Positions 9,673 to 22,620 of a stretch of 64,000 bases of DNA are shown here, piece after piece. Each line of letters opens with the position of its first letter. Position 1 is the stretch's first letter. Below the pieces are notes generated by a model that was not told the origin of the DNA, made no database searches, and saw nothing but the letters and a program-made list of their open reading frames with translations. A program made the translations under genes and the position numbers. Location of the stretch: contig NC_086108.1 in NCBI RefSeq assembly GCF_963921235.1, positions 58,778,001 to 58,842,000 on the forward strand. Reading direction: 5' to 3'. Source of the stretch: Mobula hypostoma. Taxonomy: Eukaryota.

Positions 9673-12016
9673 AATTACCATCCCATCAGCCTACTCTCAA
9701 TAATCAGCAAAATAATGTAAGGGGTCATCAACAGTGCTATCACGCAGCATCTACTTGGCAATAATCTGCTTACAGATGCCCAGTTTGGGTTCCATCAAGG
9801 CCACTTAGCTCCTGACCGCATCACCTCCTTGGTCCAACTATGGAAGAAAGAGCTAAATACCAGAGGCGAGATGAGAGTGATAGCCCTCGACATCAAGGCA
9901 GCATTTGACCAAGTAGGCATCAAGGTGCCCTAGCTAGAATGGAGTCAATGGGAATTAGGGGAAAAACCCTCCACTGGTTGAAATCATAGCTGATACAAAG
10001 GAAGGTGGTTATGGCGGTTGGAGGTCAATCATCTCATCCTCAGGACATCACTGCAAGAGTTTTCCAAGGAAGTGTCCTAGGACCAACCATCTTCAGCTGT
10101 TTTTTTTTATCAATGACCTTCCTTCTGTCATAATGTCAGAAATGGGGATGTTCGCAGATGACTGCACAATGTTCTGCACGATTCGTGACTCCTCAGATAG
10201 TGAAACAGTTCATACCCAAATGCAGCAGGACTTGGACAAACCCAAGCTTGGGCTGACAAATGGCAAGTAAGCAAGTGCCAGACAATGACCATTTCCAAAA
10301 AGAGGCTCTAACCATTGTCCCTCGACATTCAGTGACATCACCACTGAATCCCTATCAACATCGTGGCATTACCACTGACAGGACACTGAACTGGTCTAGC
10401 CATATAAACACTGTGGCTACCAGAACAAGTCAAAGGCTAGGAATCCTGCGGCGTGTAACTCACCTGACGTCCCAAAGCCTGTCATCATCTAAAAGGTTCA
10501 GGTCAGGAGTGTAATGGAATACTTGTCACTCGCCTGGATGAGTGCAGCTCCATCAACACTCAAGAAGCTTGACACCATCCAGTACAAGGCAGCCAACTCG
10601 ATTGGTACCCCTTCCACAAGTATCCAATCCCTCCACCATCGACAAACATTTGCAGCAGTGTGAACTATCTACAAGATGCACTGCAACAACAAAAGGTTCC
10701 TAAGGCAGCACCTTCCAGACCCACGACCATTACCAACCAGAAGGATGAGAACAGCAGATACCTGGAAACACCACTAGGAAATCCCCCTCCAAGTCACTCA
10801 CCACCCTGACTTGGAAACATACCACTGCTCCTTCATTGTCACTGTGTCAAAATCATGGAATTTCTTCCCTAAAAGCACTGTGGGTGTACCTATACTTCAG
10901 GGACTACAGCGGTTCAAGGCAATAAATGTTGGCTTAGCTGGTGACTCACATCCCATAAATTAATAAATCAAAATTAATAAATCAAAAGGTGGCCAACAGA
11001 TCAGCTGAGGAATTCAAATAAACAAGAATTTAATTCACTGCAAGTCAAATGGGACAATTTATTGTGATTAGATTTTACTGACCAACTTCTACAGTGCTTC
11101 TTAGGCAATCTGGATGCATACTTGAAGTCAGCAAATTGATAAATATTACCATTCATGTTCTCTTCAATCAGGTCCGTTTACAATTTTGTGGAGCAGAGCG
11201 CATTAAATATTCTACATCAAATCCATTTGGCAGCTAATCCACTAATTTGAAGTCAAAATAATCATCTAAATATTATTCAATTTAAGTTTCACTGCATAAT
11301 GTAATTATACACTCCATATTCATATACAAGTTATGCATTAATAATTTTCTTCAGGGAAAATAACACTATTCTAATGGCTTCTGAAGTTTAAGAAACAGTG
11401 AGGGAACATGACGTACTAGCAGGAAAAACAACTTGGCTAATATCTCAATAACTCAGTATCCCAAGTCTGGCTTGGAAGTGAGTAATTATTCACAAGAGTG
11501 GCGCAAATGCCCAAAAAGTGTGACGTAGAAATCTTAGGTACACGTAAAAGAAATCCAGTAAAGCAAAGATGCTTTCAAAAATAATGAAATTAAAAGTTTC
11601 CAAATATCAAGAGCAGTAAAGAGTGAAAAAACTGAATCAAAATTTGGTGTGACCAAAGTCTTTAAAACTGCATCTACTCTCTTAGGTACACTGATGTGCA
11701 GTTTAAAAGAAAATTGGCTGGTAGGTTGTTCCAAGCACTGAAAGTTTGCTACAGTTCTTCTGCAGACTTTGGCTGTCTCACTTGCTTCTGTCTCTCCAGG
11801 TAATCCCAAGCAGCCTTGATGATGTTGAGATCAGGGCTCTGTAGAGGCCATGCCATCTGATGCAGAACTCCCTGTTCTTCTTTTCGCTGAAGATAGTTCT
11901 TTACGTCCTTGGCAGTGTGTTTGTGATCATTGTCCTGCTGCAGATGAAATTGGGACTGATCAGACACTGCCCTGACGGTATTGCTTGATGGATAAGTACC
12001 TGCTTGTACTTCTCAG

Positions 12017-13048: not shown

Positions 13049-13482
13049 GGGCCGGCTAGTGGCGCAATGATATCGGTGCCGGACCTGGGAGCAGAGGTTC
13101 CCTGGTTCGAAACTAGTCGGGTCCGCCCCTGAGTACGCTTTCCATTCGTGCCGGGTTGAGTGCCCAGAACACAACACGACCTCGTAAAACAAAGGGAAAA
13201 TACTGCGAAAATGTCTGTGTGCCACAGTCATTTGGCTGGTAGGTTGTTCCAAGCACTGAAAGTTTGCTACAGTTCTTCTGCAGACTTTGGCTGTCTCACT
13301 TGCTTCTGTCTCTCCAGGTAATCCCAAGCAGCCTTGATGATGTTGAGATCAGGGCTCTGTAGAGGCCATGCCATCTGATGCAGATCTGCACTACAGTCTC
13401 TCTCTCTCCGCACCTTGTAAGAGCCATGAAAAAGACATCACGGACACACACACCGACATGCGGATGCACATGCACAGACGCC
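13049..13482 (+). mobile_element. tRNA-derived SINE interrupted by a 153-bp templated insertion
   Basis: GGGCCGGCTAGTGGCGCAATG A-box-like head, GGTTCGAAACT B-box; body continues after 13384. Confidence 0.7.
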
Positions 13483-16948: not shown

Positions 16949-19141
16949 CGATAAGATATAGAAAGACAAACAGATGCGTTAGTGGAAGAATGCCAAGTAC
17001 ACTGATTAAGCTAACAAAATGCACCCCGCCTTTGAACTGATAGGCAGTAGCGAACACTTGTGTATAAACAAGTGACTATGCGGTCTGGTTTTTCTAAGCT
17101 ATCATCTGCTCTTGTGTAGAGCTAGTTTTCACTTGCTACAAGTAAAATAACCCACTTATGATTGATCCACTGAGTTACTTGTTATGGGATGTAGTGAAAA
17201 AGTGGTCATCAGAACTTGAAGTTGGGAGCAGATCGAGGGGGATTCTGGTGACCACCTGATCCCAGGGAAATACCGGCACAGGAGGGATCACCAAAAAATA
17301 ACTTGGCTTTTTGCCGAGTGGTCTTTCCAGGCAAGTAGAAAATACCGAGTCCTGACCCGCTTGCGTTTTAAACACTGATCAACGCTGCTGTCTATTGAGT
17401 GGATCAATTTTTCTGTGATTCCACTGCTTTTCGGCATAGTGACCAGAAACATATGGGTATCAATGATTAGATTTAATATGCAAGAGTGTCAGTGACACAC
17501 TGGTAAAATAAGTAAGAGTGGGATTTGTGGAAACTGGTAAATTTAATCCCTACAGGATGCTGTAGGGAACAAAAGAAAGAAAATATGGTAAGCAGGGTGA
17601 GAAAGACTAGAAATTGGACAGGGATTCCACCTGTCCAATAAGGGGACACCAGCATGGTACATGTTTAATTATGGGAAGGGAATGGTGGAAGAATTGGATG
17701 GCAGACGATTTATGGGCCATGGTAGAACAGCCAGATCCAGAGACAGGTTTGGGAAAAGCTATTCAGAAACTTCTGGGCTTTCAAGAACAACCTAACAATC
17801 CCAGGCCAGGACCTGCCACCATGCCAAATGAAGATTTTTATAAAAATATGTACAATGCATTACATGCTGCCTTTCCTAAAAAGGCTAATTGGTCTAAGAT
17901 TATGGCAACATAACAAGGTAGAGGTGTCTCTGTAGAAGAATATGTTATAGAAGATAGTACAGAAAATGGAATAATATTCAAGACAACCAAAAGTGCAGTT
18001 ATGGTCCTACAATTACTATTATTGCAAACAGACTTTGGCCAGAATTGCATTTTGTCCTTCAGAGGACAGCCTATTAATGTCCCAAGATCAGACCCAGAAA
18101 AAGTTAGCATAGGAGACCAGATCCTGTGCTTGTAAACTTAAGTGGAAGAAATTTATTGTGTAAAATGCCAGCTACTATTACCTGCACTCCTGAACGACAA
18201 TGTGTGTATATGTGAGAGCCATTATGGACTATACTATTTCAGTAGTAGTCAACTCATTTTGTCTAAGTGGCATTTACTCACTATATCCAGTTACCAAGGA
18301 GTATGGAACATTTTTATGAGTGTGCCTTGAAAGCCTCCGGAGATTCCTCTAGGTTCTATTTAGACCCAACTCAGTAAGTGGCACATTTATCTTCATTGTA
18401 CTGTTTATTATGACTCGGCCAGAAATGACCATTTAACGCAGCAGAAATTGAACCCTTATATTGGTAAGGAAATTGTTCTCTTCACTTCTGAAATATACGT
18501 GGGCGATTCTGGTATTGTGGCAGAAGTGCGATTCCCCCATGAGGTTCAGTGGAAGTTAAAAGATCAGGGAAACAGGGAATCTTTCCTAATTCTAGCATTT
18601 TTCGGATGCAAGGTAGCAACAGACCTTAGAGCAATGGTTAAGGGTCTGTGAGGACTGCCATGACACAAGACCCTGAAAACGTATGTGAAGATTGGAAAGG
18701 GACAAGAGCTTTCTTTTATTGCTCCTTAATACATTAGGACTAGAGGCATCCTTTGAATAGGAAGTTGCAGGAGAGTTGTTGTTCAGTGCTGATCTGGACT
18801 TTACTCTCCAAAGACCCATTGCAACTTTCGGCTTTCCAGCCAAATGAAATGGACAAGATGCTCACAGTCGAGCTGCATACAGTGAAAATCAACCCAAATA
18901 CTTCACTGCCCTGCAAGGTACAGTACCTTCTTTCCCTGGAGGCTGAAGTGGCTATTGATAAAATCGTACAAATCAAACATGGCATGCCCTGGGTTTATCA
19001 CAAGCTGTACATCACGTTTATGAACAACGTATGATATATATTTTACAAAATCCAGGGAAACTAATGAAGCTGGGAAGATCTTAAAATACTATCCTCTTTG
19101 GACCATTCTTGCAATTATAGTTTTTTTAAAAAATGGAATTA

Positions 19142-20128
19142 CACTGGACAACAAAGGTTTTGCTTCCTAAATATCTTCAGGTGTATCTTATGAATTTTGG
19201 GCTACTGACCATGAAAATCACCATGAAATTTCCCTATCATGCACCATTTTTAAAATAAACTTATGTTTATTATTTCAATTCATAATTCAAGTCAATTAAA
19301 ATGTTGCCTACAATGTAAGCTGGCAAGTTTCCTATCTTGTCCAGGCATGCTTGGGCATGCTTAGGTGGTGTGGCTGCTGCATGGCAGGACAGGTTTTAGT
19401 AATAATTATTGGGTTCAGGACTGCAAGGATGGAATTTGCTATCACCAGCCACACCAATTTCTATGAAGGATTTTGATATTTGAGACAGATGCTTCCCAGA
19501 ATAACTGATGCCAAGATTAAGGAAAGCATTTTTGTTGATCCACAATCAAACAGGTCATCAATGACAGGCAATTTGAAGAATTTCTAGTGGGACCGGAGAA
19601 AATCACATGGAAGGCATTCAAGGAAGTTGAAATTTTTCTCGGCATCTACAGAGCACCAAACTACATGCAGCTGGTTGAAAGCATGCTTCAAGCATATAAA
19701 ACCATGAAATACAACATGTCACCAAAGATTCACTTTCTGCATTCCCATCTAGACTTCCCTGCAAATCTTGGTGCTGTTAGTGACGAGCATGGTGAAAGGT
19801 TTCACCATTGCGGTCATGGAGAAAAGATACCAGGGCAACTGGAATCCATCAATGCTGGCGAATTACTGTTGGACACTTAAGTGAGAAGCCTCAGACACTG
19901 AGTACAAATGAAAATCATTAACAAAATATTTTTAACTTAGTTGAACAGCATCAGCAGCATTATGTAATTAAACACATTATATTCAATAAAAGTTAATTTG
20001 TTGTTTCTCCAAATTCCAACGTAATACAAGTAGTCTGAAATTATATTTGTGTTCATCTTCAAGCAGTCTATCATAAACAAGAAAAATTCTGAGGAAGCAA
20101 CACTTTTGAAAAAATTTGTTGTCCAGTG
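19142..20128 (+). mobile_element. Chapaev3-type DNA transposon, internally deleted
   Basis: TIR CACTGGACAACAAA / TTTGTTGTCCAGTG; 3-bp TSD TTA at 19139-19141 and 20129-20131; transposase C-terminus MSPKIHFLHSHLDFPANLGAVSDEHGERFH. Confidence 0.85.
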
Positions 20129-20281
20129 TTATCTCCACCTGACAGATATCAGTATGTATTAGTCAACACTGATGCATTTTCATGATGGATTGAAGCATTT
20201 CCTTTTAGAAAGAATGTTGCAGTTACAATAGCTAAATATTTTTTAAAAGAAATCATCCCGAGGTTTGGGATCCCTGGGAAA

Positions 20282-22620
20282 GAAAACAAATAGGAGCAGG
20301 TGTAGGCCATTTGGCCCGTCAAGCCTGCTCTGCCATTCAATGAGATCATGGCTGATTTGACTATGGACTCATCTCCTCCTACCTGCCTTTTCCTCATAAT
20401 CCTTAATCCCCCTACTATACAAAAAATCTATCCAACCTGGTCTTAAATATATTGACTGAGGTAGCTACTACTGCTTCATTGGGCAGAGAATTCCATGGAT
20501 TCACCATTCTGGGAAAAGCAGCTCCTCCTCACCTCCATCCTAAACTTACTCCCCCAAATCTTGAGGATATGCCCCCTAGTCCCTAGTTCTAGTCTCACCT
20601 TCTGGTGGAATCAACTATCTTGCCTCTATCTATTCCTTAATCTCTCTTCACAGTCTAACCCCCTCAGCTCTGGAATCAAACTGGAATCTTATGCACCACC
20701 CCCAAAGCCAGCATATCCTTCCTCAAGTAAGGAGAACAGAAGCTCCAAGCGACCTCACCAGTACCATATACAGTTGCAGCCTAGCCTCCCTGCTCTTAAT
20801 TTCAATCCCTCTAACAATGAAGTTCCATTCACCTTCTTGATAGCCTGATGCACCTGTAAACCAACCTTTTGTGTTTCATGCACAAGCACTCTCAAGTCCT
20901 TCTGCACAGCAGCATGCTGCAATCTTTTACTATTTAAATAATAATCTGATCTTCCATTTTCCCTTCCAAAGCGGATGACCTTGCATTTACCAACATTGTA
21001 CTCCATCTGCCAGACCCCTGCCCATTCACTTAACTTACCCATACAGGTTTCCCCCGCTATCCGAAGGTAGAGCATTCCTATGAAACAGTTCATAAGCCGG
21101 AATGTCGTAAAGTGAATAAGCAATTACCATTTATTAATATGGGAAAAATTTTTGAGCGTTCCCAGACCCAAAAAATGACTTATAAAATCATGCCAAATAA
21201 CACACAAAACCTAAAATAACAGTAACATATAGTAAAAGCAGGAATGATAAGATAAATACACAGCCTATATAAAGTAGAAATACTTTTCTGCAGCACTGTC
21301 TAGCGTACTGAAAATCGTGCTGAAGCGCTCTCAGCAGAAACACTCGCTCCAGTAACCTTTAAGCTATGGAGCTGCCAAATCATACCAAATAACACATAAA
21401 AATACACAGCCTATATAAAGTACAAATAATGTATGTACAGTGTAGTGTCACTTACCGGAATCGGGAAGACTCCAATAAATTGCAGTTTCATCACGGATAA
21501 ACACTTGCTTATACGAATAACCACCTGACGAAATCGGTAATCACCTCTGATCTGGGCTGACATTTACGTGCCAGGCAGCACCTAATTAATTAGCTTGTTT
21601 ATTTCAGCTTTTTTCTTAACAATGTGCTGGGTGCATTCTGACTACTGCTGCACCACTGCATTCTTCGCAGCAATGTACCGGTTCATGGCCCGGAGGCTGG
21701 GGACCGCTGCTTAAACTATGAAGCTGCCCTCGCCTCAGAAACTGATCAAACCACCCATGACTACCTTTAAATTCCACTTTCGCAACACTTTCATCACCAT
21801 CGTCCAGTGCTTTCTGTTTCAGCTTATTAAAAAGACTGACTGATTTCTCCTTAAGTATAAGAAAACTTAACGGAACACCACGCTTTGTACACCCATCAAT
21901 CCACTCAAGCAACAGACTTTCCATTTTATCCATTATTGGATACCGACTAAGAAAGACCACTTTGCTACGAGCAGAACCAACAGTAACATCGGCAGCTTTC
22001 AAAATTCTTTCTCTCTGCGTATAAATAGTGCGGATGGTGGATGCAGGCAAGTTCAACGCGCGGACAATGTCCTTACTTCGTTCACCACAATCGAAACGCT
22101 TAATTATGTCTAGTTTTACGCTAAGTGTAACACCCTTACGAGCTCTTTTAGGCTTTTCCGATACCTTAGAACTCATCTTGCTAACGGATGCACAAAATAA
22201 ATCGAGATAAAGCACGTGTTTAAGCAATGCCGGTTAGAATGCAGTTCCGGGGAGGAGCTTGGCTGTTCGGGCGTGCGCTGCCTTTTTTTTGTAACAGTGA
22301 AAACACCTCCTGTTAGCGTAAACAGGTAACTAATGTAGGTCTTTTGAAAATGAGGTGTCGTAAAGCGAACGTTCGGAAAACGGGGGCCACCTGTATCTCT
22401 CTGCAGACTCTCCATATCCTCTGCACAATTTGCTCTTCCAATTCAGCGTAATCAGAAAACTTAGATACACTACACTCGGTCCCCTTTTCCAGATCATTAA
22501 TGCATATCATGAACAGTTGCAGGTCGAGCACTGACCCCTGCAGCACACCACTCATCACTGTTTGCCAACCAGAGAAACACCTGTGTGTCCCAACTCTGTT
22601 TTCTATTGGTTAACCAACAG
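20282..22620 (-). mobile_element. CR1 3' fragment inserted in ERV integrase and split by a Tigger
   Basis: SGVLQGSVL..INDL..SKF at 22394-22560 continues as EWA..WQMEYNVGKC at ~21040; 3' UTR near 20290. Confidence 0.85.
21044..22393 (-). mobile_element. Tigger/pogo DNA transposon, DDE domain deleted
   Basis: Imperfect TIRs CAGGTTTCCCCCGC.. / ..CGGGGGCCACCTG, TA TSD on both sides; ORF 21616-22227 encodes psq and CENP-B type HTH domains (KLDIIKR, LLLEWI, FKGSHGWF). Confidence 0.9.

What the first reader, a model, noticed from the sequence alone, without database searches (positions are those of the whole stretch)
18382..18651. ERV pol carries a CNPase-like 2H phosphodiesterase domain just upstream of RT
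Seen: an open frame HIYLHCTVYYDSARNDHLTQQKLNPYIGKEIVLFTSEIYVGDSGIVAEVRF...ESFLILAFFGCKVATDLRAMVKGL lying after gag and before the RT N-terminus. Known: vertebrate CNPase has LHCT...YAQQ..LKKSYSK.F.L.IS..FV....GARV.L...AHITLG, and viral 2H phosphodiesterases (coronavirus ns2, rotavirus VP3) degrade 2-5A to antagonise OAS/RNase L. Inference: the first HxT motif and spacing match CNPase by eye, while the second motif has decayed to SFLILA. This would be an accessory enzyme in a cartilaginous-fish retroviral lineage. I recall 2H domains being noted in some fish/amphibian retroviruses, so the novelty may be the host lineage rather than the architecture.
Basis: partly seen in the sequence, partly recalled or inferred. 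Interest (0 to 1): 0.75.

Follow-up and report, generated by a model that had tools for sequence, protein, structure and literature searches.

The report
Dead CNPase-like domain in fish retrovirus
A decayed endogenous retrovirus carries, between its protease and reverse-transcriptase remnants, a broken relative of the two-histidine phosphodiesterase domain already reported in fish retroviruses; the live virus likely used it to open 2',3'-cyclic phosphates, and this copy is predicted to be inactive.

Summary
The 89-aa frame is real. It lies between protease and RT remnants of a heavily broken, internally deleted ERV. Alone it hits nothing in Pfam, PDB or 1.84 billion proteins. I fetched three natural fish-type retroviral pols that carry a two-motif 2H-like insert (L014, L031, L038). 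Their profiles pick this frame as the best of 858 six-frame pieces of the window, and 0 of 1000 shuffles match it. With the window frame added, all 17 PDB hits are CNPase, each weak (E 0.13-1.8); none is AKAP7, ns2 or VP3. The first HxT motif is present, the second is absent, and the frame holds six stops. This copy is a pseudogene with no sign of co-option. Related copies and probably the same insertion occur in sibling species. The architecture is in print for bony-fish retroviruses (PMC4977317, PMC9503650). The 2-5A/RNase L reading is unsupported. The shark or ray host is not shown by any tool. Verdict: new, dead member of a known, functionally untested domain family.

The parts
17000..17460 (+). 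Multi-copy segment, likely 5' LTR end and leader of the ERV; primer-binding-site-like stretch near 17214-17235 (by eye, type recalled)
   Evidence: Covered by several related contigs in all 4 runs laid; sequence; no matching 3' LTR found
17611..17950 (+). gag (capsid-like) remnant with stops, followed by an internal deletion
   Evidence: Frame read; only a weak match to a retroviral Gag (3.5 bits, E 0.23); label mostly by eye
18049..18203 (+). Protease remnant, C-terminal half, frameshifted
   Evidence: blastx to L038 pol residues 54-79 and 91-111, E 0.006; best window hit of a 15-sequence protease profile, 7.0 bits, E 0.31
18300..18762 (+). Decayed CNPase-like 2H domain; core 18388-18654; six in-frame stops in 18199-18762
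18394..18402 (+). First HxT motif, present
   Evidence: Aligns with the first motif of all three natural domains and of CNPase through the profile
18580..18600 (+). Site of the second HxT/S motif, which is absent in this copy
   Evidence: Same 63-residue spacing from motif 1 as in L014 and L038; alignments
18783..18975 (+). RT N-terminal remnant; RT core not found, RNase H inferred lost in the same deletion
   Evidence: Weak best hit at 18882-18971 (4.1 bits, E 2.5); the RT-core profile finds nothing above 1.1 bits in the window
19138..20132 (.). Inserted DNA transposon with 24-nt terminal inverted repeats, interrupting the element just before the integrase core
   Evidence: very high depth from 19079 on
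20138..20287 (+). Integrase core remnant, first piece
   Evidence: blastx to retroviral integrases, E 4e-9 to 1e-5; up to 41 bits
22618..22878 (+). Integrase core remnant, second piece, beyond further inserted repeats
   Evidence: E 9e-7 to the L017 integrase; 32 bits
23435..23900 (+). env remnant (surface/transmembrane junction region)
   Evidence: Weak matches to gamma-type Env, 5.5 bits, E 0.027; label partly by eye

Best explanation
The frame is the broken relic of a CNPase-like two-histidine (2H) phosphodiesterase domain between the protease and RT remnants of a decayed endogenous retrovirus; it keeps one of its two motifs and is predicted to be inactive. Shown: homology to the pol inserts of natural fish-type retroviruses, position, motif spacing, loss of motif 2, in-frame stops, no RT core in the window. 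Inferred: in the ancestral virus the domain would be made inside Gag-Pol, be cut out by the viral protease and be packaged. It most likely hydrolysed 2',3'-cyclic phosphates (CNPase chemistry) on cut RNA ends, such as nicked primer tRNA or genomic RNA, or on free 2',3'-cNMPs. I put about 0.9 on the domain identity, about 0.97 on this copy being dead, and about 0.5 on that substrate.
For: A profile from L031+L014 ranks the frame first of 858 six-frame pieces (16.3 bits; best elsewhere 1.5), and 0 of 1000 shuffles reach 18.6 bits (max 5.3). The three-domain profile gives 14.4 bits against 6.4 elsewhere, 0 of 1000. A profile without L031, the one domain picked by likeness to the query, still ranks it first (9.8 bits, E 0.024; 0 of 1000). 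hhalign: probability 73.5, E 3e-5, 86 columns. Motif spacing is 63 in L014, L038 and the window. Links to CNPase: RICH 2i3e E 0.84 with motif 2 in register; human CNPase 1woj E 0.94 with motif 1 in register; 17 of 17 hits CNPase with the window included; the L038 domain hits Pfam 2_5_RNA_ligase2 (0.098) and CNPase (0.19). The Atlas feature search gives 2H families for the window frame and for the L014 domain (tRNA_lig_CPD, 188 shared features, 9 of 10 agree). The architecture is in print. Dead copy: 6 stops in 188 codons; a 95-codon open run arises in 50% of simulations at the element's own stop rate; the only Met is codon 91 of 95.
Against: No single search reaches library-wide significance: Pfam, PHROGs, NCBIfam, PDB sequences, the 5.8-billion and the 1.84-billion searches are blank for the window frame. 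All CNPase links have E of 0.1 or more, and unrelated proteins outrank CNPase; a profile of window+L031+L014 gave 0 of 5 hits in the 2H family. In one search a 25-residue chance hit scores 8.3 bits against 9.8. The Atlas result for the window frame is below its own reliability marks (131-160 shared features; only 5 of 10 agree). Pairwise, the frame does not hit L014. The substrate is untested, and I found no functional study in the searches made.
Confidence: 0.75

Rival explanations
1. The ancestral domain destroyed cyclic dinucleotides (2'3'-cGAMP) to blunt cGAS-STING sensing of retroviral cDNA, working like phage Acb1 and avian poxvirus 2H enzymes; a Pol domain would be delivered with the particle.
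For: Avian poxvirus 2H PDEs and Acb1 degrade cGAMP (figure legend of bioRxiv 10.1101/2025.08.21.671373). An Acb1 cluster is at rank 23 in the Atlas list for the frame. That cGAS senses retroviral cDNA is recalled, not from a call.
Against: No Acb1-type structure appears among the PDB profile hits. The nearest families are CNPase and the tRNA-ligase cyclic phosphodiesterase.
Confidence: 0.15
2. One reading: the ancestral domain was a 2',5'-phosphodiesterase that degraded 2-5A and antagonised OAS/RNase L, like coronavirus ns2 and rotavirus VP3.
For: Viral 2H enzymes repeatedly acquired this role (abstract of PMC10835031). Elephant shark has an OAS protein (passage in PMC6307210).
Against: Those enzymes are linked to AKAP7, while 0 of the 5, 3 and 17 PDB hits is AKAP7, ns2 or VP3. 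That paper has 0 occurrences of 'retrovir' or 'CNP'. From recall only, teleosts, which host most known carriers, lack OAS; searches did not confirm this.
Confidence: 0.12
3. The stretch is an ordinary decayed spacer of pol with a chance HxT, unrelated to 2H enzymes.
For: All large-library searches are blank. The fold searches gave nothing.
Against: Best window hit for three profiles, 0 of 1000 shuffles each; exact motif spacing; right position. 13 of 15 reference retrovirus records have no such insert, so a spacer here is not generic.
Confidence: 0.07
4. The host has domesticated this open frame as a small gene.
For: The stretch is stop-free for 95 codons, and what is probably the same insertion persists in related species.
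Against: An open run of this length is expected in 50% of simulations; the window has 82 stop-free frames of 95 aa or more; the only Met is at codon 91; motif 2 is lost.
Confidence: 0.03

Closest known systems
CNPase-like/2H domain of fish retroviruses and epsilon-like ERVs (Mazumder 2002 and Basta 2009, seen only as cited in PMC9503650 and PMC4977317; records L014, L038, L031 here)
   Same: Homologous sequence and same motif spacing; same place between protease and RT as in L014 and L038
   Different: This copy has lost motif 2 and is broken by stops; the host is probably a cartilaginous fish rather than a teleost (not tool-confirmed); L031 carries its domain between RNase H and integrase instead
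Vertebrate CNPase catalytic domain and goldfish RICH (PDB 1woj, 2xmi, 2i3e; Pfam PF05881)
   Same: Nearest solved structures by profile, motifs in register
   Different: Only weak similarity (E 0.13-1.8); embedded in a retroviral pol, without CNPase's other parts; no activity shown
AKAP7-like viral 2',5'-phosphodiesterases (coronavirus ns2/NS4b, rotavirus VP3)
   Same: Same 2H superfamily; a cellular enzyme type carried by an RNA virus
   Different: Described as AKAP7-derived (PMC10835031); no profile hit to them here; 2-5A cleavage untested
Acb1 and avian poxvirus cGAMP phosphodiesterases
   Same: Small viral 2H domains; an Acb1 cluster appears low in the Atlas list
   Different: No PDB profile hit; the retroviral domain is part of a polyprotein; substrate unknown

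Membership tests
Fish-retroviral pol 2H (CNPase-like) domain | Sequence homology to the natural pol inserts | tested here: met
   Best of 858 pieces for 3 profiles, 0 of 1000 shuffles; hhalign E 3e-5; narrow margin without L031 (9.8 vs 8.3 bits)
Fish-retroviral pol 2H (CNPase-like) domain | Located in pol between protease and RT | tested here: met
   Protease remnant upstream, weak RT N-terminal remnant downstream; protease motif to first His 83 codons vs 87 and 97 in L014 and L038
Fish-retroviral pol 2H (CNPase-like) domain | Open reading frame continuous with pol | tested here: not met
   Six stops in 18199-18762 and frame changes on both sides: a pseudogene member
Active 2H phosphoesterase | Two HxT/S motifs | tested here: not met
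   Motif 1 present, motif 2 absent at the aligned site
Active 2H phosphoesterase | Two-lobed 2H fold | tested here: inconclusive
   Single-sequence models poor (pLDDT 56 and 36); fold searches uninformative
Active 2H phosphoesterase | Phosphodiesterase activity | not testable with these tools
   Needs an enzyme assay
Vertebrate CNPase (PF05881) | Significant profile match to the catalytic domain | tested here: inconclusive
   17 of 17 PDB hits are CNPase but E 0.13-1.8; Pfam blank for the window frame, E 0.19 for L038
Vertebrate CNPase (PF05881) | Cellular gene with an N-terminal kinase-like domain and C-terminal lipid anchor (features recalled) | tested here: not met
   The flanks are protease and RT remnants: like CNPase, but not a CNP gene
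AKAP7-like viral 2',5'-PDE | AKAP7-type sequence relationship | tested here: inconclusive
   No such hit at E up to 10; shallow profiles cannot exclude it
AKAP7-like viral 2',5'-PDE | Cleaves 2-5A and blocks RNase L | not testable with these tools
   Needs an assay
Class I (gamma/epsilon-like) endogenous retrovirus | gag-pro-pol-env order with retroviral integrase | tested here: met
   Integrase pieces E 4e-9 and 9e-7; gag, protease and env pieces weak but in order
Class I (gamma/epsilon-like) endogenous retrovirus | RT-based phylogenetic placement | not testable with these tools
   RT core not found in the window; no host genome held
Class I (gamma/epsilon-like) endogenous retrovirus | Paired LTRs | tested here: inconclusive
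   No pair found; the element is old and heavily interrupted

The most novel reading that the evidence does not exclude
A multi-copy retroviral family of cartilaginous fish, old enough to be shared by several species, carried a virion-packaged CNPase-type domain that destroyed nucleotide immune signals (cGAMP or 2',3'-cyclic nucleotides). Fish retroviruses would then have captured or moved this domain into two different places in pol, making it a long-overlooked retroviral counterpart of Acb1 and the poxviral phosphodiesterases.
Probability: 0.15. Interest if true: 0.6.

Novelty: new member of a known kind. Interest (0 to 1): 0.22.

Why it matters
The locus itself is a fossil. It would extend a CNPase-like pol domain, reported in bony-fish retroviruses since 2002-2009, to a probably cartilaginous-fish ERV family shared by several species, so the capture would be widespread among fish retroviruses. 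The open question is what the domain does; I found no functional test in the paper searches made (open-access library only). Intact natural versions (L014, L031, L038) are better material for that question than this broken copy.

Tried and rejected
Blank searches for the window frame: Pfam, PHROGs and NCBIfam, PDB sequences, 5.8-billion protein set (12: 25 candidates; 33: 17 candidates; none scored), 1.84-billion phmmer, viral contigs, phage tblastn (65: 26 records, best E about 1, taken as chance). The integrase-piece searches gave no fish ERV pols (35: 34 candidates, none scored; 52: 4 loci, judged spurious 19-residue matches). Single-sequence AlphaFold models were poor and four fold searches found no 2H match; this is no evidence against the fold. 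The window+L031+L014 profile gave 5 PDB hits, none 2H (77). Of 5 metagenome matches to the motif-2 pattern, 4 were unrelated and were dropped; 1 (L038) was kept. Of 31 loci from the RT-motif scan, 15 were retrovirus records and 16 were left out. Expression: no RNA holder is on record. One run guessed to be RNA has 4 contigs identical to the window at depth 3.6-5.3 that cover the leader and reach the transposon edge; DNA can explain this, so it is not counted as evidence. Orthology: the stretch laid held little unique host flank, so a shared insertion site is not shown. No 3' LTR (23, 110), tRNA gene (24) or Rfam hit. A processed host CNP insertion was rejected: similarity to CNPase is remote and the segment is part of a multi-copy ERV family. 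Basta 2009 and Mazumder 2002 are not held. PMC2684134 and PMC4616055 have 0 occurrences of 'phosphodiesterase' or 'CNP'. The statement in PMC9503650 naming Walleye dermal sarcoma virus as a carrier was not tested. No host genome is held.

Full report
Observation. The frame 18382-18651(+) translates as quoted, 89 residues and a stop; stop to stop it is 18364-18651. Read with X at stops, the same frame runs 18199-18762 with six stops in 188 codons.

The element. It is a broken, internally deleted provirus: gag-like piece (weak), frameshifted protease half (E 0.006 against the L038 pol among three targets), the frame in question, a weak RT N-terminus (4.1 bits, best in the window), no RT core, two integrase pieces (E 4e-9 and 9e-7) split by transposons, and an env remnant (5.5 bits). 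No LTR pair was found. No host genome is held. The window is rich in LINE fragments (CR1 label by eye), and a SINE-tail motif that I recall as shark/ray type matches 4 times against 0 in 100 shuffles. A cartilaginous fish is therefore likely but not shown.

Direct searches failed. Pfam, PHROGs, NCBIfam, PDB sequences, the 5.8-billion-protein search and phmmer over 1.84 billion representatives were blank. Single-sequence models were poor (pLDDT 56 and 36) and fold searches showed nothing. The Atlas feature search listed 2H families (2H-SAK on 16% of members, LigT_PEase 24%, tRNA_lig_CPD 63%, Acb1 60%) at 0.90-0.91. It did so with only 131-160 shared features and 5 of 10 agreeing, which the tool itself calls unreliable.

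Natural homologues. An RT-motif scan of viral contigs gave 31 loci, 15 of them retrovirus records. Two of the 15 carry an extra domain with two HxT/S motifs: L014 between protease and RT, L031 between RNase H and integrase; the other 13 do not. A motif-2 pattern scan of metagenomes gave 5 matches, of which 1, L038, is a fish-type pol with protease-insert-RT order.

Homology tests. The L031+L014 profile ranks the window frame first of 858 six-frame pieces (18388-18642, 16.3 bits; best elsewhere 1.5), and 0 of 1000 shuffles reach its score. With all three domains it scores 14.4 bits against 6.4, 0 of 1000. L031 had been noticed through its likeness to the query (E 0.006), so I repeated the test without it: still first, 9.8 bits, E 0.024, 0 of 1000 shuffles, but a short chance hit scores 8.3. 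hhalign gives probability 73.5 and E 3e-5 over 86 columns. The two motifs are 63 residues apart in L014 and L038; at that distance the window lacks the motif.

Which 2H family. The natural domains link weakly to CNPase: RICH at E 0.84, rank 4 of 5; human CNPase at E 0.94, rank 2 of 3; Pfam CNPase 0.19 and 2_5_RNA_ligase2 0.098 for L038, nothing for L014 or L031; tRNA-ligase cyclic phosphodiesterase in the Atlas for L014, 188 shared features, 9 of 10 agreeing. With the window frame in a four-sequence profile, 17 of 17 hits are CNPase chains at E 0.13-1.8 with motif 1 in register; these are variants of essentially one protein, so they count as one link. One profile (window+L031+L014) gave 0 of 5 2H hits. 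No hit in any of these lists is AKAP7, ns2, VP3 or Acb1. The assignment rests on several weak, concordant results plus the literature, not on one significant score.

Copies and age. Runs of organism A hold up to 0.99 of the sampled words, organism B 0.57-0.60, organisms C-G 0.09-0.16. I laid 4 of the 24 runs listed. In the three larger runs 10-22 contigs differ at shared positions over 18224-18504, so this is a multi-copy family whose bulk copies are about 80-85% alike. Cover collapses at 18540-18616, so the data do not show whether other copies keep motif 2. Separate contigs at about 98% (B) and 93-96% (C, D) follow the window, in C and D across its gag-protease deletion; these are probably the same insertion, but a unique host flank was not bridged.

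No co-option. At the element's own stop rate (14 in 812 codons) a 95-codon open run in a 188-codon frame arises in 50% of simulations; the window has 82 such frames; the only Met is codon 91.

Mechanism. Shown: a decayed pol domain with one motif left. Inferred from retroviral biology (recalled): as part of Gag-Pol the domain would be cleaved out and packaged. Inferred from its nearest relatives: it opened 2',3'-cyclic phosphates on cut RNA or on free nucleotides (about 0.5). PMC9503650 makes a similar suggestion for a subset of RNA-viral 2H domains. Rivals are cGAMP breakdown (0.15) and 2-5A breakdown (0.12); the known 2-5A enzymes are linked to AKAP7. Host CNP is listed as binding HIV-1 matrix and blocking particle formation (table row in PMC7471995), so a non-catalytic role in assembly is also conceivable.

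What is known. PMC4977317 (passages read) says that epsilon-like ERVs of ray-finned fish can encode a CNPase or macro domain, citing Basta 2009. PMC9503650 (passages) lists 2H domains in certain fish retroviruses, citing Mazumder 2002. Neither primary paper is held. PMC4422223 on elephant-shark ERVs (part 1 of 2 read, supplements not read) does not mention the domain in what I read. PMC10835031 (abstract, outline and term search) has no occurrence of 'retrovir'; nor has the bioRxiv survey 10.1101/2025.08.21.671373 (term search; its supplements are closed and may list retroviral entries). PMC6307210 was seen as passages. Searches found no report for cartilaginous fish and no functional test. 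Two earlier notes of this scan (e1-7858212, a shark ERV; e1-7811984, a young fish-type ERV) describe the same architecture; they are leads, not independent evidence.

Verdict. Real, correctly spotted, but a dead copy of a known architecture: new member of a known kind, interest 0.22. The domain family's function is still worth testing on intact natural members.

Noticed in passing
L031:4585-5130 (pol residues about 798-979): This retrovirus record carries its two-motif 2H-like domain between RNase H and integrase, not between protease and RT. The window's domain scores best on it pairwise (7.9 bits vs 4.2 for L038). This hints at two captures or a move within pol.
   Followed up: partly
L038:2-2845 (-): Metagenome contig with a fish-type ERV pol open for 948 codons, protease-2H-RT-RNase H, both motifs present.
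   Followed up: partly
window 18540-18616: Cover by related copies collapses here (143 vs 950-1495 summed depth in the five bins before it in X6; 2-5 contigs vs 10-22), right at the site of motif 2; other copies differ strongly or have indels here.
   Followed up: no
window 19138-20132, 20290-21120, 21616-22233: A TIR transposon, CR1-like pieces (label by eye) and a Tigger-like element (CENP-B_N, HTH_Tnp_Tc5) are nested in the integrase region, showing that the provirus is old.
   Followed up: partly
window 11714-11869 and 13232-13387: 156-bp direct repeat at 99% identity around a Tc1-like transposase fragment (label by eye); unexplained.
   Followed up: no
window 18962-19138: By eye this reads as the integrase N-terminal region, implying that RT and RNase H were lost in one deletion near 18990; the profile test was not significant.
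   Followed up: partly
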